Position numbers and translations under genes: made by a program. Shown here piece after piece: positions 25,939 to 46,832 of a stretch of 64,000 nucleotides of DNA. Position 1 is the stretch's first letter. The number at the start of each line of letters is the position of its first letter. The notes below the pieces were generated by a model, which did no database searches, was not told where the DNA came from, and worked only from the letters and a program-made list of their open reading frames with translations. Source of the DNA: Limisphaerales bacterium (GTDB taxonomy: Bacteria > Verrucomicrobiota > Verrucomicrobiia > Limisphaerales > JAYPXF01); assembly GCA_047608975.1 (NCBI GenBank), contig JBLFYM010000006.1, positions 5,029 to 69,028 of the forward strand. Reading direction: 5' to 3'.

Positions 25939-28077
25939 CTAGAACGTAAGCGTTGCGCCAATTCCGACACTTCGCCCCGGAAGTGGAGCGACGTCTTTTG
26001 CCACCGAGACATGGTTGCGGGCGTCGGCGTTCAGAAGATTGTTTCCCTTGATGAACAGACTTAGGTCTCGATTCCCCCATTTGCGGGTGTGAGTGAGGTC
26101 GGCGTTGAGCAGGGTGTAAGATTTGGTCGGCGTTTCGAAATTTCGCTGGAGGCGATTCTGCGCGAACGAGTGACGGACCTCGGCTCCGAGTTTCCACGGG
26201 CCTTGGCTGTATTCGACGCGATTGCCCACGCGGACCGGAGGGAAACGCGGGATGGCTGTGTCTTGATTGAGATCGGTCGCGCGGACGGAGTCAGCGCTGA
26301 AGTGGTAGGTGAGGCTGGAGTTGGTGGAAGCGGGGAGGAGTTCGTATTCGAGCTGCAATTCGGCACCTTCGAATTTTGCGCGGGTCTGGATGTAGCGAAA
26401 GATGGGCAGACCGTTGACTTCCCAACCGGGACCGATGCCAGTGACGAAGATGTAGTTGTCGAAGTTGTAGGTAAAGTAGGTGACCGAACCGGTCAGTCGG
26501 CCTTTGGTTTTGCGTAAGCTGAATTCGTAGTTCTCGGAACGTTCAAGATCGATTCCGCCCTCGGCTGGTTTGAGGAAGGGAATGCGGTACCAGGCGCCGA
26601 CTTCAAAGGTGCCGGCGGCCAGGTGGGGGCCATTGGAGAAAAGCTCGGTGGAGTTTGGCGGACGGCGGGCGCGAGACCAATTGGCCGCGATTTCAAATCC
26701 GTCCCAGAGCTGCAGTTCGAGTCCGGCGGAAAGGCTGTGCGAATCGTAGGTAAGTCGTTCTTGCCGGATGTTGGCGAAGTTGACGTCCATGATCTGGGTT
26801 TCGAAGCGCCCACCTGCCTGAAGTTTGAGCGGGCCGAGTTCGAGGTTCTCGATGACGTATCCGGCGAAGTTTTCAGTCTGGCTGTCGGGCGTGTTCACTT
26901 CAGGGCCGCGACTGCCGAAGTCGATTGTTCTCCACGTTCCGCCGATGCGTCCGCTGAGTCCACGAAATCGTGCGTGCGTGAGGTCGAGTTTGGTTTCGGT
27001 GGTGGTGTTGCCGAAGTTGTTGTCCAACGTGGCAGCAGCTTCACTTTCTGCGTGTTGGTAGTCGGACCAAGTCCCGCGAAGTTCAATTTCGTCAATCGCA
27101 GCGATCGGGTTGTAGAGTTCGAATTCTCCGTTAAAGCGGATCTGATCGAGGTCAACGGCAACGTCGTTGATCTGCCGATTGACACCGGGACCGAAGTGGC
27201 TGTGAGCGTCCGCATGAAAAGGCACGCCGTATTCGGATTCGATACGGGTGATCGATGCGCCAACACGCCCCTTCTCCCAGAACGTTCCGATGCCACCAGA
27301 TGCGGTCAGTCGATCCGTCCAGGTGTTGGGTAGGGTTCCTTCAGGGTTGGTTGTGGGGTCGTGTGGGTTGAGACGTGCTTTGCCGGGGATATCGTAGTCT
27401 TGGGAAATGCTGCGAAGGACATTGAATTGCAGTGCGAGGTTTTCATTTCCGAGAGTAAGCGCAGTCACTCCGGTTCGTTCCCGAGAAGCGCTTTCCCAGC
27501 GAAGGGATGAGACGCCTTCGTACGACTTGGCCGGTGCGCGTCGTGGAATGCTCTTCGATTTGACGTTCACGACCCCTCCGATGGCAGATCCGCCGAACTC
27601 CAAAGTGGAGGGACCACGCAGGACTTCAATCTCTTCGGAGAGCAGGCTCTCCGCGGTGACTGCGTGGTCGGGGCTGGTCTGAGAAATATCGCCGGTGCCG
27701 ACGCCATCAGAAAGCATCCGTACGCGGTCACCGCTGAACCCGCGAATGACGGGGCGGCTAGATCCCGGACCAAAGGAGGATGAAGTGATGCCCGGTTCCC
27801 ACATCAGTGTGTCGCCAAGCGATGGAGCAATCTTGAGCTGCAAATCAGCGGCATCGAGAAGCGTACGGGATTGAATGATGCGCGTGTCGATGAGGGGAGT
27901 GCTCTCATCCGCCCGGACAACGATTTCATCCAGGATAAAAAGGTTGGTTGATACGGGAACGGTTTCCTGAGCGAACGAGTGAGTGACGCCAAACAAAATT
28001 GCAAACGCAACAATGCAACGGGGCAACGAGTAGTTGCTCAACGGGCGGTATTCATGCTCACGATTCTGTGTATGCAA
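25939..28077 (-). CDS. TonB-dependent receptor, ZnuD-like
   Basis: Signal peptide, plug motifs SSRPVIRG, PDHAV, IEVLRGP, His loop YGVPFHADAHSH, C-terminal Phe (GATLTF). Confidence 0.9.
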   Translation of the reverse strand: MHTQNREHEYRPLSNYSLPRCIVAFAILFGVTHSFAQETVPVSTNLFILDEIVVRADESTPLIDTRIIQSRTLLDAADLQLKIAPSLGDTLMWEPGITSSSFGPGSSRPVIRGFSGDRVRMLSDGVGTGDISQTSPDHAVTAESLLSEEIEVLRGPSTLEFGGSAIGGVVNVKSKSIPRRAPAKSYEGVSSLRWESASRERTGVTALTLGNENLALQFNVLRSISQDYDIPGKARLNPHDPTTNPEGTLPNTWTDRLTASGGIGTFWEKGRVGASITRIESEYGVPFHADAHSHFGPGVNRQINDVAVDLDQIRFNGEFELYNPIAAIDEIELRGTWSDYQHAESEAAATLDNNFGNTTTETKLDLTHARFRGLSGRIGGTWRTIDFGSRGPEVNTPDSQTENFAGYVIENLELGPLKLQAGGRFETQIMDVNFANIRQERLTYDSHSLSAGLELQLWDGFEIAANWSRARRPPNSTELFSNGPHLAAGTFEVGAWYRIPFLKPAEGGIDLERSENYEFSLRKTKGRLTGSVTYFTYNFDNYIFVTGIGPGWEVNGLPIFRYIQTRAKFEGAELQLEYELLPASTNSSLTYHFSADSVRATDLNQDTAIPRFPPVRVGNRVEYSQGPWKLGAEVRHSFAQNRLQRNFETPTKSYTLLNADLTHTRKWGNRDLSLFIKGNNLLNADARNHVSVAKDVAPLPGRSVGIGATLTF

Positions 28078-28183
28078 AGCGTCGTTCCCAGCTTGGCGGC
28101 GCGAACGATGCCAGCCAAAATCATTCGTTCAAGCCGCGATCTCAATTTCAGCGGATGCGCACCATAATACTGGGGATTTAGTA

Positions 28184-28200
28184 TTGCAAATGGTTTGCAA
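28184..28200. promoter_or_regulatory. Palindromic operator (Fur/Zur-type), copy 1
   Basis: (A)TTGCAAA-TGG-TTTGCAA(T) perfect 8-3-8 palindrome between divergent genes; overlaps TTGCAA-N16-TATGTT (+) and TTGCAA-N17-TATGGT (-) promoter-like arrangements. Confidence 0.85.
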
Positions 28201-28225
28201 TTCGATATGTTGCCCCACCTTTGTG

Positions 28226-29887
28226 ATGAACGGATCGAAGTTGTATTCTGGGTTTCTCGCCTTGCTTGTCGCCGGCTTGGTATTCTCCGCACCAAGCGGC
28301 CGTAGTGCGGAATTGATCACCAATGGGCACTACGACCTCAACGTGACCTTCTCCAACAACGTTGGCTGGGCGTTCAATTGGTACAACTTCGACAATGAAG
28401 CCCGAATCCCAAGCCCATTGATCGACATAGCCGTTATGGAGGCGGCTCGCACAACCGTGCCAGGCAACGGATTTTCGGCGCTCGGAGCAAGCCCGGGCGA
28501 TCCCGTCTGGATCCTGCCGCAAACCCAGACTCCGGATATCACTTTCCTCGGTTATCGCATGGCCGATGCGGATCCGAACGAGTTTTTTGCGCTTTTTGGC
28601 ACACCGATCGTTGGCCTGAAGGTTACCGAAGTTCGTGGTAGTGGCCCGGATCGTGGAGGGTTCTTTTCAGGCTATCAGACTGGCTTGGGCACTCCGACTT
28701 TCCAATACACTTCGGCGGACGGGTTCGACAACAACGACGCGATTGCCGTTCCGTTGGGGGCACATGCGCACTACAGTTGGGCCTTCACCAAGCCTGGAGA
28801 GTATCAGGTGAATTTTGAGGCGGAAGGCGATCATCGGACGGGTGGCGCAACCAATGGCTCGGGCGCATTCACTTTCTTCGTTCCCGGCGGAATGACCAAT
28901 CTCCACATCCTCGACGGCGACCATGCCTCTTTCCTCTTCGGATTCACCAGCAATTCAGTGGAGTTGAACGTGGGCGGCGAAGTCGAAGGCATTCCCAACT
29001 CCTATGACAACAAGATCCGTTCACCGGAAGAAACGTTGTTTTACGACAAAGCTTCTGACATTCAGCTCACCGTCCCAGCCGCCGGATTCGATTTCCTTGG
29101 CAACCCGGGAGAAACCATCTGGGCCTTCCCGCAGAGCTATAATCCCAACACAATCTTTCTTGGTCTCCGTTCAGAGGGCATCACCAATGGCGCAGTGATG
29201 AACGATGCGGTGGAAATGCGACTGATTGACGTGGATGGTCCCACCAACGGCAACTTCAGCTTCTTCCAAGTCGATGCGTTCGGCGCTGCGAATCTGTTTA
29301 TGGACTCCGGCGACGGAGTGGATCCCAACGTGGACAAACACGTCTTCGGGGCCAACGGTCACGATCACTACTTCTGGGCCTTCACCAAGACCGGCCGCTA
29401 TCGCGTCTCGTTCCAACTTGCCGCCACGAACACCACCGGCACTCCCATCACGTCTCGGGTCTACGAAACCCAGTTCGGCATCGGCGCGCTTCCGGGATTC
29501 CACGATGACGATGGCAACGGCATCGACGATCATTGGGAAACCCGTCACGGCTTTACCACTCCGGCGGATCCCAATGCCGACCCGGACAACGACAACAAGA
29601 CCAACCTGAAGGAATATCTCTTCGACAGCGATCCGCAGACTTCGGACACAAACGCCCCCGTCTTCCGTATCATGAACTCCGCGAATTCGATTTCGATGGA
29701 GGTCAACACTGTGGAAGGCCGTCAATATCGCCTCATGTATTCCGATGATCTCACCACTTGGAAACCCGGCAGCGAAAAGATTCTTGGCCAGCGAGCACTG
29801 CTTCCCTTCCTCGATGACGGCAATGGTCTGATCCAGGGCCCACCCACCAATCGTTTCTATCGATTGGATATTTCTTCTCCACAGTAA
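28226..29887 (+). CDS. Secreted protein with two choice-of-anchor M (TIGR03769-like) domains, Asp-rich Ca-binding repeat and RFYRL tail
   Basis: NGHYDL...PVWILPQ...HAHYSWAFTKPGEY; second domain HDHYFWAFTKTGRY; DDDGNGIDD/DPDNDNKTN; ends NRFYRLDISSPQ. Confidence 0.85.
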   Translation: MNGSKLYSGFLALLVAGLVFSAPSGRSAELITNGHYDLNVTFSNNVGWAFNWYNFDNEARIPSPLIDIAVMEAARTTVPGNGFSALGASPGDPVWILPQTQTPDITFLGYRMADADPNEFFALFGTPIVGLKVTEVRGSGPDRGGFFSGYQTGLGTPTFQYTSADGFDNNDAIAVPLGAHAHYSWAFTKPGEYQVNFEAEGDHRTGGATNGSGAFTFFVPGGMTNLHILDGDHASFLFGFTSNSVELNVGGEVEGIPNSYDNKIRSPEETLFYDKASDIQLTVPAAGFDFLGNPGETIWAFPQSYNPNTIFLGLRSEGITNGAVMNDAVEMRLIDVDGPTNGNFSFFQVDAFGAANLFMDSGDGVDPNVDKHVFGANGHDHYFWAFTKTGRYRVSFQLAATNTTGTPITSRVYETQFGIGALPGFHDDDGNGIDDHWETRHGFTTPADPNADPDNDNKTNLKEYLFDSDPQTSDTNAPVFRIMNSANSISMEVNTVEGRQYRLMYSDDLTTWKPGSEKILGQRALLPFLDDGNGLIQGPPTNRFYRLDISSPQ

Positions 29888-29948
29888 ATAGCAGCCAACG
29901 TCAGCGGCTCGAACTTCGCTGCGTTTCCGAGCGTTCTTACGTCGACTG

Positions 29949-32483
29949 CTACGGATTGACACCCTGCACCGGACGCTTGGTGCCAGGCCAATGAAGCCAG
30001 TTGGCATTGGTGTCATTCATCAGGACCGGCGGAAGATTTGTGCTGAGAAGTGCTTCGAAGGCGGGCGCGCGTCGATCCTTTTGGAGAATGGCTTGTTCCC
30101 AATTGGAAAGCGTGAATCCCAGCCCCGCCATACGAACGTGATCAAAGCCGCCACTCGGTCGATCAAAGAGGCGGGGAAATTGTTGCATCCATTTCAACCA
30201 GAGACCGCCGATGTGATATTTGGCATTGGGTTTGCCGGTCAGACGTTCGCGGGCCGCATCGAGTTCGATCCAGAGGTTGTCCAAGGTGTTCAGCGGCGTT
30301 TCCTTTTTGGCTTCGTATCGCCCGAAGTAGAGCATGGCGATGCCTTCGCGGTGGCGCATGCTGGGGTCTGCAATCTGGTTGTGAATGCGGACTTGTGAGC
30401 AGCGTTGGGCGACGACGTTCCAATCCAAATCAGAATCCTTGAAGCCCACGAGAGCGAGACCAGGATGACGGGTCTTGAAAGTGAGACGGAAGAGATGCGT
30501 CGTTGGGAAGGCTTCCTTGAAGGTGTTGGCGATGACGGTGAATTGATCGGCGGTGAGCTGATACATCGGCAGCCATTGGCAGAAAATCCCGCCCGGTCGC
30601 AAAGCGTCGCGAACAGACGCAAAGTGTTCACGGGAATAGAGCCGTCCGACGCCTGCGCCCCACGGCAGGAAGAGATCTGCCTCGATGACGTCAAAGCTCT
30701 CCCGACAGGCGGCGAAGTAGGTGCGACCGTCTTCGTTCAAAACGCGGGCGTGCGAAACGTTGGCGACGTCATGATTGATCTCGGCGAAGTGTTCAGTGGC
30801 CGCATCAATCACAGATTCGGCGATCTCGATGGAGACAATCTCCTCGACTGAATCGTGAAGCACTGCCGCGCCGGGTGTCATCCCAGTCGCGTGCCCAATG
30901 AAACCAGCGCTCTTGGGAGCGGGATGCAAGAGCAGCGGCAGGTGGGCTTGACGTTCCTGCATATATTTGGCCCGCGAACTTCCCAAGACGTACTGGTTGG
31001 ACATCATGATCGCGCGCCCCATACCTTCGTGCTCGATCACGGCAAGATGCCCTTCGCGACCGTTCTTCTCTTCCAGGAGTTTGAAGCCCATGTTCGCATT
31101 CACGTGTGGAATGTTTGGCAACTTCCCGAATAGCAAACCGGCAACCAGGACAAAAGAAACAGCAGTTACCCCAATGGATAAGGCGCTTCGCGAGACCGAC
31201 CTCCAGAGGAGAAAGCCAACGGCAAATACCACGTAAACGAGCCCTACAACGCCAAGCGACTGGTAGACCCCGAGCTTGGGGAGCAACCAGCGATAGGTGA
31301 TCTCCGCACCAAGCAATCCGCCCAGTCCATTTACGGCCAGCAACCAGCCCAGTTGTCTGCCCTTGGCATCGTTGCCCTCCTCGCTCAACCATTTCAATGC
31401 GGCAGGAAACAACATGCCAGCGAAGAAGATGGCTGGGCCAATGGTGGCGAGCGCGACGCCGGCGAACTTCAACATGAACATCAATACGCTGGGGTTGGAT
31501 ACGTAGGGATGATGTCGAGTGACGATCGCCATGTAGATCACCGGTGCAAGCGCGAGGCAGAGTCCAGCTATAGCGGCAAAGACGACGATCGCATGCGAAA
31601 GCTTCCCGCAAAGCTTCGTGAGCGGTCCGATTAGCCAAGCCGAAACGGCAAGGAGCAGAATCACCGCGACCAGCAAGGCGGTCGGGGTATGGAAAGACAT
31701 GGTCGCAACCAAGGTATACATCTTGAAGGCCGCCACTTCGGCTGCCATTACCCCGGCGCCTGAAAAGCCCGCGATGACGAGAATGCCCGGATCCAATCGT
31801 CGGTTCTCGGACTCGTTCGATTCGCGTGCGAGTTGTTTCTCGATGCGTTGGGTCTCGCGCAAATGCAGTTGCCAAAACGCAAAACCAAGCCCGGCGTTCA
31901 TAGTCATCATGGCGATCATGGACGCGGAAGCACCGGCAGCGGGAATGATGAAGCCGGCCAGAATCAGCAGTCCCACCACCCCGCCAACGGTATTGAAGGC
32001 GTAGAGATTGATGCCCTGCCGTCCCAGTTCGAATCCACCCGCCATGACCCCGCGAACGATGACTGGAAAACCGAAGCCCATGAGCGTGGCTGGGGGCACG
32101 ATCATCAGTGCAGACAGGAGGAACTTGATCAGGCCGCCAGGCCAGGCAACAAGCAAGTCCGGGCCTACCCGTGGCCAGATCCAATCGGTGAGTTGCGGCA
32201 GGAATAGAATGGGCAGCGTGAGAAGAACGATGCCGACTTCCAGGCGAGCCAATACAAGGAAAGGACGTTTGATGCGATGCACGTAGACGGCGGCCAGAGC
32301 GGAACCGAGCCCCAGCCCAAAGAAGAAGCAACTGAACACCCGCACGCTGGATTCCGCGCTCGCTCCCAAAAGATCCGTCAACCGGCGCGTCCACAATAAT
32401 TGATGTCCCAATGCGGCGGCACCGCTGAGCAGCAGCAACAGCAGAGCGAGGCGGTAGACTTGTTGAGAACGTTTGTCACCCAT
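29949..32483 (-). CDS. Fused multi-TM / spermidine-synthase-like SAM-dependent transferase
   Basis: LSGAAALGHQLLWTR, LYAFNTVG, about 13 TM segments, FIGHATG, IEIAESV, EDGR, DVIEAD, YSREHF. Confidence 0.85.
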   Translation of the reverse strand: MGDKRSQQVYRLALLLLLLSGAAALGHQLLWTRRLTDLLGASAESSVRVFSCFFFGLGLGSALAAVYVHRIKRPFLVLARLEVGIVLLTLPILFLPQLTDWIWPRVGPDLLVAWPGGLIKFLLSALMIVPPATLMGFGFPVIVRGVMAGGFELGRQGINLYAFNTVGGVVGLLILAGFIIPAAGASASMIAMMTMNAGLGFAFWQLHLRETQRIEKQLARESNESENRRLDPGILVIAGFSGAGVMAAEVAAFKMYTLVATMSFHTPTALLVAVILLLAVSAWLIGPLTKLCGKLSHAIVVFAAIAGLCLALAPVIYMAIVTRHHPYVSNPSVLMFMLKFAGVALATIGPAIFFAGMLFPAALKWLSEEGNDAKGRQLGWLLAVNGLGGLLGAEITYRWLLPKLGVYQSLGVVGLVYVVFAVGFLLWRSVSRSALSIGVTAVSFVLVAGLLFGKLPNIPHVNANMGFKLLEEKNGREGHLAVIEHEGMGRAIMMSNQYVLGSSRAKYMQERQAHLPLLLHPAPKSAGFIGHATGMTPGAAVLHDSVEEIVSIEIAESVIDAATEHFAEINHDVANVSHARVLNEDGRTYFAACRESFDVIEADLFLPWGAGVGRLYSREHFASVRDALRPGGIFCQWLPMYQLTADQFTVIANTFKEAFPTTHLFRLTFKTRHPGLALVGFKDSDLDWNVVAQRCSQVRIHNQIADPSMRHREGIAMLYFGRYEAKKETPLNTLDNLWIELDAARERLTGKPNAKYHIGGLWLKWMQQFPRLFDRPSGGFDHVRMAGLGFTLSNWEQAILQKDRRAPAFEALLSTNLPPVLMNDTNANWLHWPGTKRPVQGVNP

Positions 32484-32592
32484 GACACGAAAACGCGGAG
32501 ACCGTAGTCCCCGCACAAAAACGAGGCGAGCCCTGACCGGCACACATTTACGGTCAGAGCCCGCCTATCCCGTCACCCGACGGGAAATTTGA

Positions 32593-35562
32593 CTAGGGTT
32601 GCGGTTGTTGAATTCCGATCCGGAAGAAGCGTGATCCAATCGTCGCTGGGTCACGGTTCACATCCAAGAGCCGGAGGATATTACCATCAGGAACTGCCTG
32701 TGCTCCGTTGACCGGCGCGAACACCGTCGGCGCATTGATTGCCTCGCTGGATTCCAGCATGAGATTCAATCCGCCGGTCGGGCCTTCCACCTTCACCCCC
32801 GCTACGAAGACTTGCGTCACACGCAAGACCGGAACGTTCGGACTCGTCGCAGCCGGACCGGTTGAACCGTTGACAACAAACCGATAATTCCCTGGTACAG
32901 CGCCGGTGGCGCTCAGGGTCGCGCCGCTTGCCCCTGGAATATCCACGCCGTCCAGTTGCCACTGGTAAGTCAATCCATCTCCCGTCACTGCACCGGCGGG
33001 AATGCTCAACATCAGTGAGCCGTCGGGCGCCAACACAGCACCCGGCAGAGCAGACGTAAATGTCGCGACGTTAACAGTCGCGGGCACGGGTGGAGCCTGA
33101 ACCAAGAATGTCAGAGTGCCCGAACCACTCACGGCTCCGAGCGTGTTGTGCATGCCGGCAGCTGTCAGGTTGAGCTGGTAGTTACCCGGTGCCGAGAAAC
33201 CCAGATTGAAGTGCTCATGATGCCCAGCTTCGACGGTGAAGTTGTCTGCGGCCGAAACCCCATCGGCACTCGACATGCGGAAGGTGGGCGTCAGACCAGC
33301 TTGGTAAACCGAGAAGTGACCCGGCCCACTCACACTGTTCAATGTCCAGGCAATGTCTCCGTTCCAATCACCGGCCGTCAATTCTTCCGCAGCCCAACCG
33401 AGAAACACTGCTCCGGCCGTTTCCGAAGCATTCTCTGTCTGAGGTAGAACAAAGACGGCTGCGCCAGAGCTTGCGCCAGTCGGATCCCACTCCGAGCCAC
33501 TCGGTCGTGCGATCAAGGTCGACGCCGGCACCACGACATGAAGGTCCTCTGCCTCGAACTCATTCTGTTGCGGCGCGCCGCCCGTAATCGTCGTCATGCC
33601 ACCGGTGAATTCGGTGTGGAAACCGATTTCTAACTGGTTGCCATCCAACTCAAGATTCACGTCGCCATGTCCACCGGTCAGTTGGAACGGATCCGCTGCC
33701 ACATCGAAGGTCAAGGTGCTGGTCGAGCTCACGACACCCGCAGTGTTGTGCGTGCCTGCCACAGCTACCTGAACCTGATACTTGCCCGGTTGTGAAAACC
33801 CGAGATTGAAATGCTCATGATGACCGGCTTCAACCGTGAAGACATCTGCTGCACTGACTCCATCGGATGACGCCATGTTAAAAGTCGGTGTCAGCCCAGA
33901 TTTGTAAACGGAGAAAGCCCCCGGTCCGGTTACTCCGGTCAAGGTCCAGTTAAGGTCGCCGGTCCAGTCTCCCGCCATCAATTCCTCAGCGGCCCATCCC
34001 AGCCGAACCACGCCGGCGGCTTCGGATTCCGATTCCGTCTGCGGCATTATGTTCATGCGCTGCCCTGCAGGAATACCGATCGGGTCGAACTCCGCTCCCG
34101 CGGGGCGCGTCGTAGTCGTACCCGTCGGAACGTTGATGATGATGTCAGACGCGGCGAACTCGTTTTGCTGCGGCGCACCTCCCGTGATTTCAGTATGTCC
34201 GCCGGTGAACTCAGTATGGAATCCGACTTCCAATTCGGAACCATCGAACTCCAGGTTCACATCGGCATGTCCGCCAGTAAGTCGAAAGGGGGTCGCTGCC
34301 ACATCGAAGGTAAGAGTACTGGTCCCATTGACCGCACCAGCCGTGTTGTGCGTTCCCGCCACATTCAACTGAATCTGGTAAGTGCCGGGTGCGGAGAAGC
34401 CGAGATTGAAGTGCTCGTGATGACCGGCCTCTATCGAGAAAGAATCACCAGCGGTCAAGCCATCGGCCGAAGCCATATGGAAGTTCGGCGTGAGCCCTGA
34501 TTCATAAACCGAAAATGTTCCCGGACCGGTCACGCCGCTCAAAGTCCAGTTGAGGTCACCTGACCAATCGGCGGCAGTCAGTTCTTCAGCGGCCCAGCCC
34601 AAACGAACCACACCGGCGGTTTCGGACGCCTCTTCAGTTTGGGGCATCACGTTGATGCGTTGGCCGCCCGGAACACCGATTGGATCAAACCCGGCGTCTG
34701 TCGGCCGCGTCGTGGTCGTGCCAGTCGGCACATTGATGATGATGTCTGCTGCTTCGAATTCGTTCTGCTGCGGCGCGCCTCCCGAGATTTCGGTCATACC
34801 ACCCGTGAACTCTGTGTGGAAGCCGACTTCCAATTCTGCCCCATCGAATTCGAGATTCACATCGGCATGTCCACCGTTGATCCGGAACGGTGTCGCAGCC
34901 ACGTCGAACGTCAGTGTCCCAGTCGTGTTGACTGCACCAGCCGTGTTGTGCGTTCCCGAAACGTTCAATTGAACCTGGTAGGTTCCCGGTGTAGAGAAGC
35001 CGAGATTGAAATGCTCATGATGACCGGCTTCGATCGTGAAAGCATCTGCAGCGCTGATGCCGTCTGAGGAAGCCATTCTGAATGTCGGTGTCAGGCCGGA
35101 TTCATAAACCGAGAACGTTCCCGGGCCGGTCACGCCAGTCAAAGTCCAAGTGAGGTCGCCTGTCCAATCGGCGGCTGTCAACTCTTCCGCAGCCCACCCG
35201 AGACGAACCACACCAGCAACTTCAGATGCCTCTTCAGTTTGCGGCATCACGTTGATGCGCTGACCACCCGGAACACCAATCGCATCGAACTCTGTTACAG
35301 CGGGACGAGCCGTGGTGGTGCCGATTGGCACGTTCACAGTCAGGTCAGCGGTTTCAAACTCGTTCTGCTGAGGTGCGCCACCGGTGATGGTAGTCATACC
35401 ACCGGTGAATTCGGTATGGAAACCGATCTCCAGGTTTGCACCATCGAATTCTAGGTTTACATCGGCATGCCCGCCGGTAAGGAGATACGGCTGGGCACTT
35501 GCGGTGCCGACGACGGACAAAATCGTCAGCAAACAAATCATAATTGTCGGTCTATTTTTCAT
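32593..35562 (-). CDS. Large surface protein with four tandem choice-of-anchor M domains, Ig-like domain and RFFRI tail
   Basis: Signal peptide; 4x GGH(A/G)DVNLE...FHTEF...GHHEHFNLGFS.PG.Y; TYQWQLDGVDIPGA; ends SRFFRIGIQQPQP. Confidence 0.88.
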   Translation of the reverse strand: MKNRPTIMICLLTILSVVGTASAQPYLLTGGHADVNLEFDGANLEIGFHTEFTGGMTTITGGAPQQNEFETADLTVNVPIGTTTARPAVTEFDAIGVPGGQRINVMPQTEEASEVAGVVRLGWAAEELTAADWTGDLTWTLTGVTGPGTFSVYESGLTPTFRMASSDGISAADAFTIEAGHHEHFNLGFSTPGTYQVQLNVSGTHNTAGAVNTTGTLTFDVAATPFRINGGHADVNLEFDGAELEVGFHTEFTGGMTEISGGAPQQNEFEAADIIINVPTGTTTTRPTDAGFDPIGVPGGQRINVMPQTEEASETAGVVRLGWAAEELTAADWSGDLNWTLSGVTGPGTFSVYESGLTPNFHMASADGLTAGDSFSIEAGHHEHFNLGFSAPGTYQIQLNVAGTHNTAGAVNGTSTLTFDVAATPFRLTGGHADVNLEFDGSELEVGFHTEFTGGHTEITGGAPQQNEFAASDIIINVPTGTTTTRPAGAEFDPIGIPAGQRMNIMPQTESESEAAGVVRLGWAAEELMAGDWTGDLNWTLTGVTGPGAFSVYKSGLTPTFNMASSDGVSAADVFTVEAGHHEHFNLGFSQPGKYQVQVAVAGTHNTAGVVSSTSTLTFDVAADPFQLTGGHGDVNLELDGNQLEIGFHTEFTGGMTTITGGAPQQNEFEAEDLHVVVPASTLIARPSGSEWDPTGASSGAAVFVLPQTENASETAGAVFLGWAAEELTAGDWNGDIAWTLNSVSGPGHFSVYQAGLTPTFRMSSADGVSAADNFTVEAGHHEHFNLGFSAPGNYQLNLTAAGMHNTLGAVSGSGTLTFLVQAPPVPATVNVATFTSALPGAVLAPDGSLMLSIPAGAVTGDGLTYQWQLDGVDIPGASGATLSATGAVPGNYRFVVNGSTGPAATSPNVPVLRVTQVFVAGVKVEGPTGGLNLMLESSEAINAPTVFAPVNGAQAVPDGNILRLLDVNRDPATIGSRFFRIGIQQPQP
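33069..35490 (-). repeat. Four intragenic tandem units with 600-bp period
   Basis: Anchor atcggcatg/gtcgccatg at 35461, 34861, 34261, 33661; outer boundaries approximate. Confidence 0.9.
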
Positions 35563-35697
35563 TTCAGGGTACGCCAACACAGTTGGCCAAAGGTTTTTCA
35601 AGGTCAGATTAAGCGACGCAGTCCGCCGCCAAGAGTGAGTGTGGGAAGGCGCGATCCGACAAGGTGTCGAATCCCGTTTGCGGGAGGACGAGGAAAT

Positions 35698-36066
35698 CTA
35701 GGAGACAGGAGGGGCGCGCCCGGGGATGGCAGAAGAAGACAATCCGGAAGCAACCTGGCCGTGTTCGAGCAGTGTCACTTCCGATATCACAACGAACTGA
35801 AGTGGGACGAAACCGATTGCCACCGGAACATCCGCGCACCCGGCAGCAAGAAGCTCGATCAGGCACTGATGACCATCGGGCAATCCGGATCCTTGCTCAT
35901 GCCCGGTTTCGGCTTGGCAGCCTGAGGAGCAACAATATGACGCCCCTTCACAATGCAGTTCGGCATGAAGCCCCGGCAGATGAACAAGCGTACCAGCCGC
36001 CAAAACGCTGAATGCCAAAGCGGTGGCAAGCAGGAGTTTGAGTGCGTGTTGAGTGCGCGTTACCAT
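35698..36066 (-). CDS. DUF2946-like His/Cys leader protein ending in RAPP
   Basis: Signal-like N-terminus, HLPGLHAELHC..YCC..GC...GH...GHQC, C-terminal PGRAPPVS-stop; ATG at 36066. Confidence 0.75.
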   Translation of the reverse strand: MVTRTQHALKLLLATALAFSVLAAGTLVHLPGLHAELHCEGASYCCSSGCQAETGHEQGSGLPDGHQCLIELLAAGCADVPVAIGFVPLQFVVISEVTLLEHGQVASGLSSSAIPGRAPPVS

Positions 36067-36083
36067 TTGCAAGCGATATGCAA
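36067..36083. promoter_or_regulatory. Palindromic operator, copy 2
   Basis: TTGCAAG-CGA-TATGCAA immediately upstream of the DUF2946 start. Confidence 0.65.
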
Positions 36084-36173
36084 TAAGAGAGTAAGGAAAG
36101 TGGTTCGTCAAGGATTTTGGTGGTGAACAGAATACAACCTGGCCGATCGAATTGAAGTAAGACGGATTTATTA

Positions 36174-36190
36174 TTGCAAACCTATCGCAA
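36174..36190. promoter_or_regulatory. Palindromic operator, copy 3
   Basis: (A)TTGCAAA-CCT-ATCGCAA(T) upstream of the Fur-family gene. Confidence 0.75.
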
Positions 36191-36226
36191 TTATTACGGG
36201 AAGGGACATAGCTTTGCCGCGTTCTT

Positions 36227-36700
36227 ATGGGAACGCAGAATTCAGTTCAGCGATCGGTTTATGAGCGTTGTGAATACGTCTCCAACGTACTTCAACAAGC
36301 GGGCAATCGGCTGACCAAGTCCCGCCGTGAGGCCATTCGTGTGCTGTGCTCAGCAAGCGCGCCCATGTCGATTCAGGATCTGCACGAAGAGGTGGTACGC
36401 AGGGGTTCCAGCGATCTCAGCACCCAATACCGTCTGATGAACGAGCTCCAACGTCTGGATCTCGTAAAGGCGGTCGAAGTTCCCGGCCAGTCCATGCCCG
36501 GCTACGTCGTGCACCTGCCGGGGGAAAGCAATGATCTGCTGGTGTGCGTTCGCTGTGGCCATTATGTGTGGCTAGAGGAGGCTGCTGAAATTCGGAAGCT
36601 GGAGGAACGAGTTGCCAAAAAAATGAAATTTGGAGAGCTCTCACACGAACTGCGCCTCAACGGGGTTTGCGAACCGTGTCAGGAAACTTCCGATCCGTAA
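36227..36700 (+). CDS. Fur-family transcriptional regulator (Zur-like, atypical)
   Basis: RLTKSRR, LSTQYRLMNELQRLDLV HTH, CVRC and CEPC structural Zn site, HELRLNG. Confidence 0.88.
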   Translation: MGTQNSVQRSVYERCEYVSNVLQQAGNRLTKSRREAIRVLCSASAPMSIQDLHEEVVRRGSSDLSTQYRLMNELQRLDLVKAVEVPGQSMPGYVVHLPGESNDLLVCVRCGHYVWLEEAAEIRKLEERVAKKMKFGELSHELRLNGVCEPCQETSDP

Positions 36701-37598
36701 GCGCCGACGCTGATTTGGCTTTGAGATCACCGATTCGCTGCTGAATCGGAGCGGGGTTCGGGCTGACGGTTGCGAGCACGCTGAAGTAGTGAATGGCTTC
36801 AGCGAATCTATCCTCACGTTCGGCCAGCACGCCAAGCTTACCGACAATTTGACTCAAGCCGAAGCGATCGGGTTGTTCCTTTTCAGCCTCCCCTTCTTTC
36901 CAACGGAGCAGCGCCAATTCCCAGAGTCGCTTGGCTTTCACTTGGTCGTTTCTGTTTTCGTCGGCGATACGCCCAAGCTCGAACAGAATCGAATAGCTTT
37001 GGGGATTGTGGCGAAGCCCTTCGCGAAGGAACTTCTCCGCCGCGTCCGCACGATTCATGCGGGAGCGCAACCAATACGCCGTAGTAGTGTAGGTTTCCTC
37101 GCGGGAGGGATCCAAGGTCGCTGAAAGCCGCAACCAAGGGAGGATCTCACGTACTTCTCCACTGTCGCCCAACTCAATCGCATGGCCTTCTCCTTCGGCA
37201 GCCGCCGTAGCCCCACCCTCGTCCAGGTGGGTATGGGAGGCGGGCCGGAAGTGACGCCCGATGCGCTCGATAAAATCTCGGGAGTCACTTTCAAACTCCT
37301 CGCCGTGCTCGTCAGTCTCATCGGCAATCGCGCCCGCATCAGCAGCCATATGCGGGGACTTGAAGCCCCCGGCCTGATCGAAGAAGGACGGATAGTAGCC
37401 ACTGTGAAAATACGCATCGGCTTTGACGAAGAACTCGTAAGCCAAAACCTTTCGACCTTCACCCAGCGCCAGCGCGAATACGTTTCCGGAGCGGGACCGA
37501 TCACCGGATCCGCTTACAACATCGGGCACCAAAGCTGTCGAGATTGCAAAGGCTGCCAAGGCGAAAGCAATGGCTTGAAACAAGGGATGGCGCATCAT
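36657..37598 (-). CDS. His-rich TPR-containing membrane-anchored protein
   Basis: N-terminal TM, KADAYFHSGYYP, HFRPASHTHL, C-terminal TPR-like helices. Confidence 0.75.
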   Translation of the reverse strand: MMRHPLFQAIAFALAAFAISTALVPDVVSGSGDRSRSGNVFALALGEGRKVLAYEFFVKADAYFHSGYYPSFFDQAGGFKSPHMAADAGAIADETDEHGEEFESDSRDFIERIGRHFRPASHTHLDEGGATAAAEGEGHAIELGDSGEVREILPWLRLSATLDPSREETYTTTAYWLRSRMNRADAAEKFLREGLRHNPQSYSILFELGRIADENRNDQVKAKRLWELALLRWKEGEAEKEQPDRFGLSQIVGKLGVLAEREDRFAEAIHYFSVLATVSPNPAPIQQRIGDLKAKSASALTDRKFPDTVRKPR

Positions 37599-38488
37599 TC
37601 AGAAGGTAGGGGTTGTCGGTCAAAGCACCATTCTGCGAGCTTGATGAGGGAAGCGCTCGCACACAGCGCATAAGCAATGGAGGCAATGACAATTCCACCT
37701 GAAGCAGCGTCGCGACTGCCGCTGGCAATCTCTCGGGCGTCCAGCAGTTCGAAATGGGGCATCAGGAAGTAGATGGCTGCAAGTGGTGACTGCAGGGGTG
37801 AACCGGACAAGTTGCCAAGCGAATCATGCAGCGGTCGGGCAGCCAACAACATGAGAGCACCGACCAGGAGGCAAAGGCCCACGTTGAGTCCGCCTGGCAT
37901 TCGCCAGACTGCCAAAGCCAAAGCAAGGGAAGAAAAGAGCGTGAGCGCGCACCAATGAAGCATCAGCCCTTGAAACAACCCCACCCAGCTGTAGTCGCCT
38001 GCTGCAAACAGACCGAAGCCAACTGCTGAATAGCAGATCGCGAGCGCTACGCAGTTAGTGATGCCGCTGCCGAGGGCCAGTCCCCATAGATACTCCGACC
38101 GACGAATCGGTTTGGACAACAACAAGGGAAGGGTTCGGTTTTGAAGGCCGCGCGGCAACTGGCGCGCCGTTAGCGCGAGACTCATTGTGATCGTGACAAC
38201 CCAGATCACTGCCAGGCACAACTCACCGACCACCCGTGTCATCTCTGGCCGCCCACCCATGGATGCCGCCACTAGCATGCAGAGCACGATCCCGGCGATG
38301 AATATCACAGCAACACACTCCTCCTTACGCAGTGCTTCGCGATATACGATTCCCGCCACCGTTGTTGCGTTCCGCCATCCGCGCTCAAAGCCGCGTACCT
38401 GCGACTTGTTTTCATCGTTCATTTTCGGTGACCTCAGCGTTTGTTCCTTGAGCCAGGTTGATGAATACGCGTTCGAGGCTGACTCCAT
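37595..38488 (-). CDS. ABC-2 type transporter permease
   Basis: VYREALR, RTLPLLLSKPIRRSEYLWG, 6 TM. Confidence 0.85.
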   Translation of the reverse strand: MESASNAYSSTWLKEQTLRSPKMNDENKSQVRGFERGWRNATTVAGIVYREALRKEECVAVIFIAGIVLCMLVAASMGGRPEMTRVVGELCLAVIWVVTITMSLALTARQLPRGLQNRTLPLLLSKPIRRSEYLWGLALGSGITNCVALAICYSAVGFGLFAAGDYSWVGLFQGLMLHWCALTLFSSLALALAVWRMPGGLNVGLCLLVGALMLLAARPLHDSLGNLSGSPLQSPLAAIYFLMPHFELLDAREIASGSRDAASGGIVIASIAYALCASASLIKLAEWCFDRQPLPSE

Positions 38489-39161
38489 GTTTTCCGCTCA
38501 GCATACCGGGTTCGCCTTCCACCTTGAGCTCGCCGTCCACCAACATCCCCACACGATCGCACACCGTCTCGATCTCGCTCAGTTCGTGCGAAGAGAAGAA
38601 TACCGTGCGCCCACGGGCCTTCATGGATTCGATCAACTGCCGGATTTTCTGTCGTCCAAGGGGATCCAATCCGCTCGCCGGTTCATCGAGAATGAGGAGT
38701 TCAGGATCATTCAACATCGCCTGTGCCAAGCCCAAGCGCTGCTGCATCCCTTTCGAGAACTTGCCAATGCGTTTCTTCGCGTGGTCCGCCAATCCCACTT
38801 GGGCGAGCAATTCGGCGATGCGAATCCGACGATCGTCCGCGCTCATTCCGAACAAACGTGCATAGCTGTCCAGCAATTCAACCGGCGTGAGAAAGTCGTA
38901 GTACGTCGGCGTCTCTGGGAGATACCCAAGTCGGGCCCGAGCGGCTTCGTCCCGCGCATCAACGCCAAGGATTGATATCTCGCCTCCTGCTATTCGGTTG
39001 AAACCGAGCAAAGCCCGGATGGTGCTCGATTTGCCTGCGCCATTGGGGCCGACGAAGCCGTACACCTCGCCACAGCGAACGCTCAGACTCAGGTTTCGCA
39101 CCGCGGTGTGTTGGCCGTATTCGATGCATAGATTCCGGATTTCAATGACGGTTTTATTCAT
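38412..39161 (-). CDS. ABC transporter ATP-binding protein
   Basis: GPNGAGKS Walker A, FSKGMQQR signature, LILDEP Walker B, SSH. Confidence 0.95.
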   Translation of the reverse strand: MNKTVIEIRNLCIEYGQHTAVRNLSLSVRCGEVYGFVGPNGAGKSSTIRALLGFNRIAGGEISILGVDARDEAARARLGYLPETPTYYDFLTPVELLDSYARLFGMSADDRRIRIAELLAQVGLADHAKKRIGKFSKGMQQRLGLAQAMLNDPELLILDEPASGLDPLGRQKIRQLIESMKARGRTVFFSSHELSEIETVCDRVGMLVDGELKVEGEPGMLSGKHGVSLERVFINLAQGTNAEVTENER

Positions 39162-39198
39162 AAGCGATTCAGAGCCCTAAAGTTTTTCTGATCTTTTA

Positions 39199-39215
39199 CT
39201 GCAAATCTATTGCAA
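39199..39215. promoter_or_regulatory. Palindromic operator, copy 4, overlapping a -35 (TTGCAA-N17-TAGCGT)
   Basis: (A)CTGCAAA-TCT-ATTGCAA(T); -10-like TAGCGT at 39233-39238. Confidence 0.8.
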
Positions 39216-39247
39216 TAACGGAATCAGCCCGCTAGCGTCAACCGCAA

Positions 39248-39264
39248 ATGCAAAAGGTTTGCAA
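39248..39264. promoter_or_regulatory. Palindromic operator, copy 5
   Basis: (A)ATGCAAA-AGG-TTTGCAA(T) just downstream of the predicted transcription start. Confidence 0.8.
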
Positions 39265-40531
39265 TACTGTCTCTGAGTCGGATTCCACACCCGAGGTGGT
39301 TTCGGTGGACTCTGTGGCTGAACAGCGAGCCAACATCCACCGCATGACCCCGGTCACCGTTCTCTCCGGATTTCTGGGAGCGGGCAAGACGACCCTCCTG
39401 AACCAGTTGTTAAAACATGCCGGCGAACGAAAAATTGCGGTCATTGTGAATGACCTGGGCGAGGTCAATATCGACGGTGCCCTCCTGCGAGAAGGGGGGA
39501 GCGGATCTGGCGAAGCGGTGATGGAAATCACTGACGGATGCTTTTGCTGCAACATCCAAGAAGATCTGGTGCACGGATTGCTGGATCTGGCAGGTCGCGA
39601 GCCCCAGTTCGATCACATCATCGTTGAAGCCTCCGGCGTGGGAGACCCGGAAGGAATTGTAGTTGCGGTCGATCGCGCCGCGGTTTTCATGCCCCGGCTG
39701 CGCGAGATCGTTGACATTCAATCGCTGGTCACGGTCATAAATTCACCGCTCCTCTTGGAAGAATGGCGACGCATGCAGAGCGCGGACAAGTTGGTGAGTG
39801 CCCATCTATCCCCGAACATCGAGCCCATCTTCGAACTGATGGTGCAACAAATCGAATGCGCAGATCTGTTACTCGCCAACAAGGACGACCGTCTGAGCGA
39901 AACCGACCGCGAAGATCTGCGCACGCTCGTCGGTTCGATGAACGAACGTGCCGAACTGAAATTCATCCGCGAAGGCGAACTCGCGGTGGAAGACGTGCTC
40001 GATCAACAACGTTTTGAATTGCAGACAACAATTTGCGGCGCTCGCTGGATGTCCGATCTGCGCGCGGAAAAAGAGACAACTAAGCCGTCCATTTCCATCT
40101 CCCTAGATCGGCCGTCCAGTTCTCGGGACCAAAGAGGAGCGGCCTACAATCGACATGGGCTCTCATCGTTTGTGTATCGAGCCCGACTGCCCTTCCGTGC
40201 GGCCGCGTTCACGAAGTTGATCTCGCCCCCGCTCCCCGGAGTCATCCGCGTGAAAGGATTCTTTTGGGTCGATGACCACGCTCGCGATGTCAACCTGCTC
40301 TCCATCTCCGGAAACATCCTGCGCCGAAACATTCTCGGCCGTTGGTGGATTGACCGCGTTCAGGCCGAGGAATGCGACCGTTCGGATGTGCCTGACCTAA
40401 TCGAGGCACATTGGCAAGAGCCACACGGAGATCGTCGCCAGGAACTCGTCTTCATCGGCACGGAACTTGAGGAAGAACAACTCCGCAAACAATTGGACGA
40501 TTGCCTCGCCGACTACTTCTGGGGTGCTTGA
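39248..40531 (+). CDS. COG0523 / CobW-family G3E metallochaperone GTPase (start may be ATG 39344)
   Basis: LSGFLGAGKTT, VNDLG, GCFCC (CxCC), VEASG, ANKDD, CobW_C RVKGFFW and RQELVFIG. Confidence 0.95.
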   Translation: MQKVCNTVSESDSTPEVVSVDSVAEQRANIHRMTPVTVLSGFLGAGKTTLLNQLLKHAGERKIAVIVNDLGEVNIDGALLREGGSGSGEAVMEITDGCFCCNIQEDLVHGLLDLAGREPQFDHIIVEASGVGDPEGIVVAVDRAAVFMPRLREIVDIQSLVTVINSPLLLEEWRRMQSADKLVSAHLSPNIEPIFELMVQQIECADLLLANKDDRLSETDREDLRTLVGSMNERAELKFIREGELAVEDVLDQQRFELQTTICGARWMSDLRAEKETTKPSISISLDRPSSSRDQRGAAYNRHGLSSFVYRARLPFRAAAFTKLISPPLPGVIRVKGFFWVDDHARDVNLLSISGNILRRNILGRWWIDRVQAEECDRSDVPDLIEAHWQEPHGDRRQELVFIGTELEEEQLRKQLDDCLADYFWGA

Positions 40532-40549
40532 ACTGACGACCACGAATCC

Positions 40550-42779: not shown

Positions 42780-42785
42780 GCTGAC

Positions 42786-43562: not shown

Positions 43563-43638
43563 CTGTCCCACACTCGTCGACTAAAATAAATTCAAGGTTG
43601 AACTACCAGTGCGAAAGTTGAGTTAATCTACCCGTCGC

Positions 43639-46416: not shown

Positions 46417-46418
46417 CC

Positions 46419-46829: not shown

Positions 46830-46832
46830 ACC

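What the first reader, a model, noticed from the sequence alone, without database searches (positions are those of the whole stretch)
28183..39265. Five copies of an AWTGCAAA-N3-WTTGCAAT operator define the regulon
Seen at 28184 (TTGCAAATGGTTTGCAA), 36067 (TTGCAAGCGATATGCAA), 36174 (TTGCAAACCTATCGCAA), 39199 (CTGCAAATCTATTGCAA) and 39248 (ATGCAAAAGGTTTGCAA), all at 5' ends of metal genes. I found none elsewhere by eye. At 28184 and 39199 a TTGCAA half-site doubles as a -35 with a TAnnnT 16-17 nt away, which fits steric repression. The motif differs from the gamma-proteobacterial and Firmicute Zur boxes and looks more like alphaproteobacterial Mur/Fur TGCAAA-N3-TTTGCA boxes. Inference: a lineage-specific Zur-type site.
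Basis: partly seen in the sequence, partly recalled or inferred. Interest (0 to 1): 0.75.

Follow-up and report, generated by a model that had tools for sequence, protein, structure and literature searches.

The report
Zur operator sites, zinc-starvation island
The five repeated palindromes are real binding sites for a zinc-sensing repressor (Zur) that switches on a 23-kb block of zinc-scavenging genes in a verrucomicrobial genome; this is an ordinary kind of switch, the same DNA word is already published for a clostridial zinc regulator, and the repressor is probably encoded elsewhere in the genome, not next to the sites.

Summary
The window has exactly five matches to ATTGCAAA-N3-TTTGCAAT, against 0.38 expected. 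All five lie between genes.

The 6.4-Mb genome has one more site. It sits upstream of a ZIP transporter and a second, canonical Fur-family gene that I call Zur. The next-best matches lie inside long reading frames.

In 19 other genomes from 16 families of the same order, the same box sits directly upstream of the first gene of the operon that contains the Zur orthologue (znuACB-zur or ZIP-zur). A matrix built only from 16 of those foreign sites ranks four window sites and the ZIP site as the top five in this genome.

So this is an autoregulated Zur box. It is most likely read by the distant Zur, not by the local His-less Fur paralogue, which occurs in only 3 of 40 relatives.

The core TGCAAAT-N-ATTTGCA equals the published DAP-seq motif of Clostridium thermocellum Fur_1691, so the box is not lineage-specific.

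TTGCAA, a 16-18 nt spacer and TAnnnT are conserved for four promoters in three genomes.

It is a new member of a known kind, of modest interest. Its main use is to assign uncharacterised genes to a zinc-starvation regulon.

The parts
25939..28077 (-). TonB-dependent outer-membrane receptor. Its best family match is the zinc-piracy receptor ZnuD, but below that model's cut-off. The start is probably TTG 28041.
   Evidence: Pfam Plug and TonB_dep_Rec. NCBIfam ZnuD 295 bits against a cut-off of 950.
28183..28201 (.). Site 1, a perfect palindrome ATTGCAAATGGTTTGCAAT. The hexamer 28184-28189 is a candidate shared −35 for two divergent promoters, with −10 TATGTT at 28206-28211 on the + strand and TATGGT at 28166-28161 on the − strand.
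   Evidence: 32.5 bits, the top hit in the genome. Conserved in G001 and G004. −35/−10 geometry conserved.
28226..29887 (+). Secreted choice-of-anchor-M / TIGR03769-repeat protein, 553 aa.
   Evidence: NCBIfam choice_anch_M 183 bits.
29949..32543 (-). Fused membrane / spermidine-synthase-like protein, possibly the last gene of the unit controlled by site 2.
32593..35601 (-). 1002-aa protein with four choice-of-anchor-M repeats.
   Evidence: internal repeats; similarity to the 553-aa protein..
35698..36066 (-). 122-aa secreted His/Cys-rich protein. Its ATG abuts site 2.
   Evidence: Read from the sequence. Orthologues in G002 and G003.
36066..36084 (.). Site 2, TTTGCAAGCGATATGCAAT, the weakest site. 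It lies just downstream of a conserved TTGACG-17/18-TCTTAT on the − strand.
   Evidence: 16.4 bits.
36173..36191 (.). Site 3, ATTGCAAACCTATCGCAAT. Its right hexamer 36185-36190 is a candidate −35 for furX, with −10 TAGCTT at 36209-36214.
   Evidence: (21.6 bits).
36227..36700 (+). furX, a Fur-family paralogue. It keeps the two CxxC pairs but lacks the His cluster (PGESNDLLVCVRC). It is a regulon member and probably not the main reader of the box.
   Evidence: Pfam FUR 44 bits. Alignments. Distribution.
36657..39161 (-). Operon of an ABC ATPase (38412-39161), an ABC-2 permease (37595-38488) and a TPR protein (36657-37598).
   Evidence: Synteny in G002 and G003.
39198..39216 (.). Site 4, ACTGCAAATCTATTGCAAT. 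Its right hexamer 39210-39215 is a candidate −35 for the COG0523 operon, with −10 TAGCGT at 39233-39238.
   Evidence: (22.1 bits).
39247..39265 (.). Site 5, AATGCAAAAGGTTTGCAAT. It lies at the predicted transcription start and contains the in-frame ATG 39248.
   Evidence: (27.3 bits).
39248..40531 (+). COG0523 / ZigA-like zinc metallochaperone GTPase. The alternative start is ATG 39344.
   Evidence: Pfam cobW and CobW_C. NCBIfam ZigA 288 bits against a cut-off of 600.
40550..48886 (+). Closely spaced downstream genes: TlpA-like, TlpA-like, MerC-like, ABC-2 permease, DUF3450, ExbB, ExbB, ExbD, TonB and a TPR protein. They probably form one unit with COG0523.
   Evidence: Gene spacing.

Best explanation
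The palindromes are Zur boxes. They are operators for a dimeric, zinc-loaded Fur-family repressor, and the order-wide consensus is nTTGCAAA-Y-N-R-TTTGCAAn.

The repressor is most likely the canonical His-rich Fur-family protein encoded outside the window, at contig C5:82661-83155. It lies in a ZIP-zur operon that carries the genome's sixth box.

When zinc is sufficient, Zur would occupy the boxes. The boxes overlap the −35 hexamer and spacer (sites 1, 3 and 4) or the −10 and transcription start (sites 2 and 5) of six promoters, so binding would exclude RNA polymerase.

When zinc is scarce, Zur would leave the DNA and a zinc-starvation island of about 23 kb would be transcribed. The island holds:
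- a ZnuD-like receptor with its own TonB-ExbBD system;
- choice-of-anchor-M surface proteins;
- a secreted His/Cys protein;
- an ABC-2 transporter;
- a COG0523 metallochaperone with TlpA-like and MerC-like proteins;
- the His-less Fur paralogue furX.

Shown here: the sites, their genome-wide specificity, their conserved link to zur operons, and the promoter geometry. Inferred: zinc as the signal, repression as the direction, and which protein binds.
For: - Window: five sites against 0.38 expected.
- Genome-wide PWM scan: six clear outliers, one of them upstream of ZIP (PF02535) followed by a Fur-family gene.
- Lower-scoring hits lie inside open frames of 234-958 aa.
- In 19 other genomes from 16 families of the order, the best-scoring or pattern-matched box in the fetched locus lies directly upstream of the first gene of the operon holding the orthologue (42-66% identity) of the C5 protein. 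That gene is znuA (PF01297, 224-260 bits) or ZIP.
- A matrix built only from 16 foreign zur-operon sites ranks sites 1, 5, 4 and 3 plus the C5 site as the top five of the genome, at 21.6-32.5 bits. The next hit scores 16.7.
- In close relatives the sites are islands of identity inside intergenic DNA that is 72-80% identical overall and has indels.
- TTGCAA, 16-18 nt and TAnnnT are kept for four promoters in three genomes. TAnnnT has a genome-wide frequency of 0.003 per position.
- The best family matches of the regulated genes are zinc systems: ZnuD, ZigA, AztC/ZnuA, AztB/ZnuB.
- An identical core motif is bound in vitro by a clostridial Fur-family protein at a zinc ABC operon (PMC8457756).
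Against: - No binding or expression data exist for this organism.
- No Fur paralogue here reaches an NCBIfam Zur cut-off, so the name 'Zur' rests on gene context.
- All zinc-family matches are below their curated cut-offs. ZnuA-family and ZIP transporters can carry Mn or Fe.
- Site 2 is no better than background by the independent matrix.
- Five genomes with a Zur orthologue showed no box near it. In three, zur is not in a transporter operon; in two, the contig ends.
- The foreign sites were found with a pattern derived from this window, so their discovery is not fully independent, although their position is.
- The promoter of the ABC-2 operon could not be placed.
Confidence: 0.8

Rival explanations
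1. The local His-less Fur paralogue (furX, 36227-36700) is the protein that reads the five boxes, either alone or together with Zur.
For: - furX lies in the middle of the island and has its own box.
- It keeps a Fur-type recognition helix with the Tyr-Arg pair (SDLSTQYRLMNEL against CDLATVYRSMHLL in Zur).
- A 41%-identical relative in another family sits inside a znuACB-furX-COG0523 operon, so the subfamily is tied to zinc loci.
Against: - furX orthologues occur in only 3 of 40 related genomes.
- The box is found at zinc genes in at least 15 families that lack furX but have the canonical Zur, several of them 96-98% complete.
- furX lacks every His of the sensory cluster, so it could not sense zinc in the usual way.
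- The one genome that seemed to have furX but no Zur (G002) also lacks the essential rpsR gene, which adjoins ZIP-zur in its relatives. That points to an assembly gap.
- The G036 furX-type operon has no box.
Confidence: 0.15
2. The box belongs to a Fur-family regulator that senses another metal (Mn, Fe, Co or Ni), as in the alpha-proteobacterial Mur system that the reader mentioned.
For: - ZnuA-family binding proteins score almost as well against Mn models (MntC 130-155 bits) as against Zn models (AztC 147-173 bits).
- ZIP and COG0523 proteins are not strictly zinc-specific.
- No regulator reaches a Zur equivalog cut-off.
Against: - For every regulated family the best match is the zinc member: ZnuD, ZigA, AztC/ZnuA, AztB/ZnuB.
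- No mntH or sitABCD, siderophore or haem gene sits at any site.
- The genome has three further Fur paralogues that could serve iron and peroxide.
- The same core motif marks zinc transporters in Clostridia.
Confidence: 0.07
3. The repeats are not operators. They are chance AT-rich palindromes or remnants of a small repeat element in intergenic DNA.
For: Intergenic DNA is AT-richer than this 57.5% GC genome, which raises the chance of AT-rich words there.
Against: - Shuffles give 0.38 against 5 observed.
- Scores are bimodal genome-wide.
- Position is conserved across 16 families, always at zinc genes.
- Flanks diverge while the half-sites stay fixed.
Confidence: 0.01

Closest known systems
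Fur_1691 (Clo1313_1691) box of Clostridium thermocellum, TGCAAATcATTTGCA, defined by DAP-seq (PMC8457756)
   Same: - Identical 7-1-7 core. For example, ATTGCAAATGATTTGCAAT in G023 and G024 contains it exactly.
- It is bound by a Fur-family protein.
- It lies upstream of a zinc ABC transporter operon next to the regulator gene.
- It is conserved at zinc transporters in related species.
   Different: - Different phylum.
- Here the positions next to the centre are only Y and R, and an extra T/A on each side is conserved.
- The regulon is far larger, with six sites and about 25 genes, including a TonB system and a Fur paralogue.
- Orthology of the two regulators was not tested.
- That study recorded no conserved self-regulation for Fur_1691, whereas here the regulator sits in the operon behind the box.
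Classical Zur boxes: B. subtilis 7-1-7 TCGTAAT-N-ATTACGA, the E. coli 23-bp box, and the actinobacterial TGAAAATGATTTTCA type (reviewed in PMC6103462; the sequences are from my own knowledge)
   Same: - A palindrome of 15-23 bp read by a Fur-family dimer.
- It overlaps core promoter elements of znuABC, ZIP, COG0523 and TonB-receptor genes.
- The zur operon is autoregulated.
- Several boxes of graded quality per regulon (for the architecture).
   Different: The half-site letters differ (TGCAAA against TCGTAA, GTTATA or TGAAAA). The most conserved bases lie farther from the dyad.
Alpha-proteobacterial Mur box (MRS) and Fur-alpha box (PMC1698941)
   Same: A 19-bp palindrome of a Fur-family protein. 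I recall, from memory only, a TGCAA-rich half-site.
   Different: Those boxes control Mn uptake (sitABCD, mntH) or iron genes, and none of these is present here. The sequence comparison could not be made, because the logo and tables are not held as text.

Membership tests
Zur box (operator of a Fur-family zinc uptake regulator) | Palindromic site of Fur-family size (15-19 bp, 7-1-7 or 9-1-9) | tested here: met
   19-bp palindrome. Positions 3-8 and 12-17 are nearly invariant in 16 foreign and 5 local sites.
Zur box (operator of a Fur-family zinc uptake regulator) | Lies in promoter regions of zinc-acquisition genes | tested here: met
   Found upstream of ZnuD-like receptor, COG0523/ZigA-like, ZIP and znuACB genes. 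It overlaps a conserved −35/−10 geometry. The zinc assignments are best matches below curated cut-offs.
Zur box (operator of a Fur-family zinc uptake regulator) | Rare elsewhere in the genome | tested here: met
   Six outliers in 6.38 Mb. Weaker hits lie in long open frames.
Zur box (operator of a Fur-family zinc uptake regulator) | Conserved linkage to the regulator gene (autoregulation) | tested here: met
   The box heads the zur-containing operon in this genome and in 19 others from 16 families.
Zur box (operator of a Fur-family zinc uptake regulator) | Zinc-dependent binding by the protein and repression in vivo | not testable with these tools
Fur_1691-type box (TGCAAAT-N-ATTTGCA) of Clostridia | Same core sequence at zinc transporter genes | tested here: met
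   Paper text compared with the consensus and individual sites.
Fur_1691-type box (TGCAAAT-N-ATTTGCA) of Clostridia | The regulators are orthologous | not tested
   The sequence of Clo1313_1691 could not be fetched. The homologue lists carry no organism names.
Alpha-proteobacterial Mur box (MRS) | Controls manganese uptake genes (sitABCD, mntH) through Mur | tested here: not met
   No such genes lie at any of the six sites or at the foreign sites.
Alpha-proteobacterial Mur box (MRS) | Sequence match to the MRS logo | not testable with these tools
   The logo and site tables are not held as text.
Canonical metal-sensing Fur/Zur protein (for the local furX) | His-rich regulatory site before the first CxxC | tested here: not met
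   The window copy has PGES-NDLLVCVRC where Zur orthologues have GHHHHL(I/V)CxxC. All eight furX-type sequences lack the His cluster; seven share this motif and the G036 relative has ET-EDYVAC.
Canonical metal-sensing Fur/Zur protein (for the local furX) | Structural Cys4 site and winged-helix DNA-binding domain | tested here: met
   Both CxxC pairs and the (S/A)TxYR helix are kept.

The most novel reading that the evidence does not exclude
The island may contain a two-tier circuit on one operator class.
- Zinc-loaded Zur keeps furX silent.
- On zinc starvation the His-less, presumably zinc-blind FurX is made.
- FurX then either re-occupies the same TTGCAAA boxes, giving a delayed zinc-independent brake on the starvation response, or forms mixed dimers with Zur.

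A second unusual point is that the transcripts would be almost leaderless, and the COG0523 start codon and first six codons (MQKVCN) would be written inside operator 5.
Probability: 0.15. Interest if true: 0.6.

Novelty: new member of a known kind. Interest (0 to 1): 0.33.

Why it matters
No transcription-factor site has been described for this verrucomicrobial order in the literature I could search. The box gives a ready matrix for predicting zinc regulons across at least 16 families of mostly uncultured bacteria.

It places several uncharacterised families under zinc-starvation control:
- choice-of-anchor-M surface proteins;
- a membrane/spermidine-synthase fusion;
- an ABC-2/TPR transporter;
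- TlpA-like and MerC-like proteins;
- a His-less Fur paralogue.

That is a testable functional lead for each of them. It also adds a second phylum to the TGCAAAT-N-ATTTGCA class of Zur boxes, which so far has been measured only in Clostridia.

Tried and rejected
- Sigma-70 consensus scans of the four intergenic regions found no promoter at the tool's 9-of-12 threshold. A relaxed, conservation-based test replaced them.
- I tried to compare with the Mur box. The paper gives no consensus in its text and no supplement is held. Two further literature searches were uninformative.
- Phylum-wide (200 genomes) and class-wide (120 genomes) pattern scans looked for the box outside the order. Hits were rare. 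In 15 of the 16 loci checked by tblastn no zinc gene lay within 1.5 kb. The two class-scan hits from other orders were one inside a long open frame and one next to an apparent dapF gene. The remaining phylum-scan locus (G133, L066) was not checked.
- NCBIfam could not name any of the five Fur paralogues; all were below cut-off.
- PDB sequence search did not separate Zur from Fur or PerR.
- Cluster look-up gave no organism names.
- A 624-aa flanking gene failed as a synteny marker because it is multicopy. rpsR worked instead.
- The 20-bit hit at C195:5173 was rejected as coding; it lies inside a methyltransferase-like frame.
- Two other ZnuA-family systems of this genome (contigs C27 and C62) carry no box.
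Full report
**The observation**

The five sites are at the stated coordinates.
- A search for ATTGCAAANNNTTTGCAAT with up to three mismatches returns exactly these five in 64 kb. Dinucleotide-preserving shuffles give a mean of 0.38 and never more than 2.
- A looser core, TGCAA-N7-GCAA, gives the same five places against 0.81 expected.
- The word is a true palindrome. ATTGCAAA is the reverse complement of TTTGCAAT.

**Gene context**

Pfam and NCBIfam scans give the following map.

| Coordinates | Strand | Feature |
|---|---|---|
| 25939-28077 | − | TonB-dependent receptor, best match ZnuD |
| 28183-28201 | . | Site 1 |
| 28226-29887 | + | Choice-of-anchor-M (CoA-M) protein |
| 29949-32543 | − | Membrane/spermidine-synthase fusion |
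| 32593-35601 | − | Four-repeat CoA-M protein |
| 35698-36066 | − | 122-aa secreted His/Cys protein |
| 36066-36084 | . | Site 2 |
| 36173-36191 | . | Site 3 |
| 36227-36700 | + | Fur-family gene, here called furX |
| 36657-39161 | − | TPR protein, ABC-2 permease, ABC ATPase |
| 39198-39216 | . | Site 4 |
| 39247-39265 | . | Site 5 |
| 39248 or 39344 to 40531 | + | COG0523/ZigA-like GTPase |
| 40550-48886 | + | Two TlpA-like proteins, a MerC-like protein, an ABC-2 permease, DUF3450, ExbB, ExbB, ExbD, TonB, a TPR protein |

The last group is closely spaced. Every site lies between genes, at a 5' end.

**The whole genome**

The assembly has 6.38 Mb in 277 contigs, with 57.5% GC.
- A matrix built from the five sites gives scores that tail off smoothly to 17 bits. 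Seven outliers follow: the five window sites, C5:81840 (TTTGCAAACCGTTTGCAAA), and one 20-21-bit hit inside a coding frame.
- The C5 site lies after the rpsR terminator. It is 46 nt upstream of a ZIP transporter (PF02535), which is followed directly by a second Fur-family gene.
- The lower-scoring hits all fall inside open frames of 234-958 aa.
- The genome has five Fur paralogues. None reaches a curated NCBIfam cut-off.

**Which protein reads the box**

The C5 protein has the usual His-rich segment, GHHSQDHHHHLICSRC. The window's furX has PGESNDLLVCVRC, with Ser, Asn and Leu at the positions of His96, His97 and His99 of Helicobacter pylori Fur. It keeps both CxxC pairs.

Evidence from 40 relatives of the same order:
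- Clear furX orthologues exist in only three: G002 at 85% identity, G003 at 80% and G036 at 41%.
- Orthologues of the C5 protein, at 42-66% identity, exist in 21.
- A pattern scan of the same genomes finds the box in 27 of 41 (the window's own genome included). The backwards-read control gives 0-2 per genome.
- In eleven of them the box is on the same contig as the C5-type gene and lies directly upstream of the first gene of its operon. That operon is znuA-znuC-znuB-zur or ZIP-zur. ZnuA was confirmed by Pfam at 224-260 bits in five families.

I then fetched the remaining zur loci.
- The top matrix hit of each 6-kb stretch sat immediately upstream of znuA or ZIP in five more genomes.
- A class-level scan added three further families.
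- The total is 19 other genomes from 16 families.
- Five zur-positive genomes showed no box. In three, zur was not in a transporter operon. In two, the contig ended.

One apparent exception was G002, which has furX and seven boxes but no C5-type gene. It also lacks ZIP and the essential rpsR, which adjoins ZIP-zur in G000, G001 and G003. The region is therefore simply missing from that 92%-complete assembly.

The box therefore tracks the canonical Fur-family protein, which I call Zur because of its operon partners. furX is best read as a member of the regulon. Whether it also binds the box remains open. Its recognition helix keeps the Tyr-Arg pair but differs at several positions.

**An independent check**

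I built a matrix only from 16 foreign zur-operon sites.
- It gives the consensus nTTGCAAA-Y-N-R-TTTGCAAn, so the spacer is Y-N-R and not a free N3.
- Scanning this genome with it ranks site 1 (32.5 bits), the C5 site (28.9), site 5 (27.3), site 4 (22.1) and site 3 (21.6) first. A gap to 16.7 follows.
- Site 2 scores 16.4, no better than the best coding hits.
- Site 2 is nevertheless kept at the same place in G002 (TTTGCAAACGATATGCAAT) and G003.

**Footprints in close relatives**

I aligned the three intergenic regions with genomes of the same genus.
- The half-sites are islands of identity in DNA that is 72-80% identical overall.
- That DNA carries a 30-bp indel between sites 2 and 3.
- Changes inside the sites fall in the spacer and the outermost bases.

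**Mechanism**

TTGCAA is self-complementary, so one hexamer can serve both strands. A script found TTGCAA (TCGCAA at site 3 in this genome), then 16-18 nt, then TAnnnT in all three genomes for four promoters:

| Promoter | −10 in this genome | −10 in the two relatives |
|---|---|---|
| CoA-M | TATGTT | TACGTT, TAACTT |
| TonB-dependent receptor | TATGGT | TAAGGT, TACGCT |
| furX | TAGCTT | TAGCTT, TAGGTT |
| COG0523 | TAGCGT | TAGCTT, TAGCGT |

TAnnnT occurs at 0.003 per position genome-wide. The variable inner letters combined with fixed T-A...T argue for real −10 elements.

By inspection, the small His/Cys gene has a conserved TTGACG-17/18-TCTTAT on the − strand. Site 2 begins at the end of that −10 element.

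All five sites therefore overlap core promoter elements, which fits repression by exclusion of RNA polymerase. The tool's own sigma-70 scan found nothing, because these promoters match only 8 of 12 consensus positions. I could not place the ABC-2 operon promoter.

Start codons lie 10-15 nt after the putative −10 elements, so the messages would be nearly leaderless. The only start codon conserved for COG0523 in three genomes is the ATG inside site 5. G002 and G003 lack the internal ATG.

**Which metal**

The best family match of each regulated gene is the zinc member:
- ZnuD, 295 bits;
- ZigA, 288 bits;
- AztC/ZnuA, 147-173 bits, against MntC at 130-155 bits;
- AztB/ZnuB.

All are below curated cut-offs. 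Zinc is the most likely signal but is not proven.

**Comparison with what is known**

- A literature search found no Zur site described for Verrucomicrobia.
- A lead from earlier notes of this scan pointed to PMC8457756, which I read. DAP-seq of the Clostridium thermocellum Fur-family protein Fur_1691 gave the pseudo-palindrome TGCAAATcATTTGCA upstream of the adjacent zinc ABC operon. Similar sites occur at zinc transporters of three related species.
- That is the core of the present box. ATTGCAAATGATTTGCAAT in G023 and G024 contains it exactly. The box is therefore not lineage-specific.
- Inside Verrucomicrobiota it is concentrated in this order. The exact core occurs in 6 of 15 same-order genomes and in 2 of 106 from other orders of the class. 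Those two are one coding hit and one next to an apparent dapF gene.
- In a phylum sample, 14 of 200 genomes had a match with at most one mismatch. None of the 13 loci tested (L053-L065) had a zinc gene within 1.5 kb; the fourteenth, from G133, was not checked.
- The Mur-box resemblance could not be tested. Its defining context, manganese transporters, is absent here.

**Verdict**

- The Zur-type operator reading is supported, and so is the −35 overlap.
- This is a new member of a known kind of switch. Its main value is that it assigns several uncharacterised gene families, and an odd His-less Fur paralogue, to a zinc-starvation regulon.

Noticed in passing
window 36227-36700: furX is a Fur-family paralogue that keeps both CxxC pairs but has PGES-NDLLVC in place of the GHHHHLxC sensory cluster. 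It sits behind its own Zur box. A 41%-identical relative in another family (G036) lies inside a znuACB-furX-COG0523-DUF3450-ExbB operon that has no box.
   Followed up: partly
window 39233-39265 (also 28206-28226 and 36209-36229): Start codons lie only 10-15 nt after the conserved TAnnnT elements, so these mRNAs would be nearly leaderless. The ATG at 39248 is inside operator 5. The first six codons (MQKVCN) are identical in three genomes because they are the operator.
   Followed up: partly
window 28161-28211: One self-complementary TTGCAA hexamer (28184-28189) appears to serve as the −35 of both divergent promoters, for the TonB-dependent receptor and for CoA-M. Polymerase could then load in only one direction at a time.
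   Followed up: partly
window 39248-48886: The unit behind site 5 appears to run about 9.6 kb, through TlpA-like, MerC-like, ABC-2 and DUF3450 genes, and ends with a dedicated ExbB-ExbB-ExbD-TonB set and a TPR protein. This would be a private energising system for the Zur-controlled receptor.
   Followed up: partly
G002:C100:5899-5940, G003:C322:6456-6497, G004:C35:3226-3267 (L026, L078): In relatives, a CoA-M paralogue carries two boxes in tandem with centres exactly 23 bp apart. In G004 they face a second, 35%-identical COG0523 gene. Regulon architecture varies within the genus.
   Followed up: no
genome contigs C27:10135-12773 and C62:18700-21045: Two further ZnuA-family ABC systems in this genome carry no box; the best score within 800 nt is below 4 bits. 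They are probably not zinc-regulated, or they answer to another regulator.
   Followed up: partly
L001 6662-7159 (genome C5:82661-83155): Zur proteins of this genus and of its sister genus in the family end in a basic tail followed by CGC (…RKPKPCGC). Most orthologues in other families lack it. It may be an extra metal-binding tail.
   Followed up: no
G002 (assembly PBAL01): This 92%-complete MAG lacks rpsR, ZIP and zur together, which points to an assembly gap at that locus. It shows why presence/absence calls from MAGs need care.
   Followed up: yes
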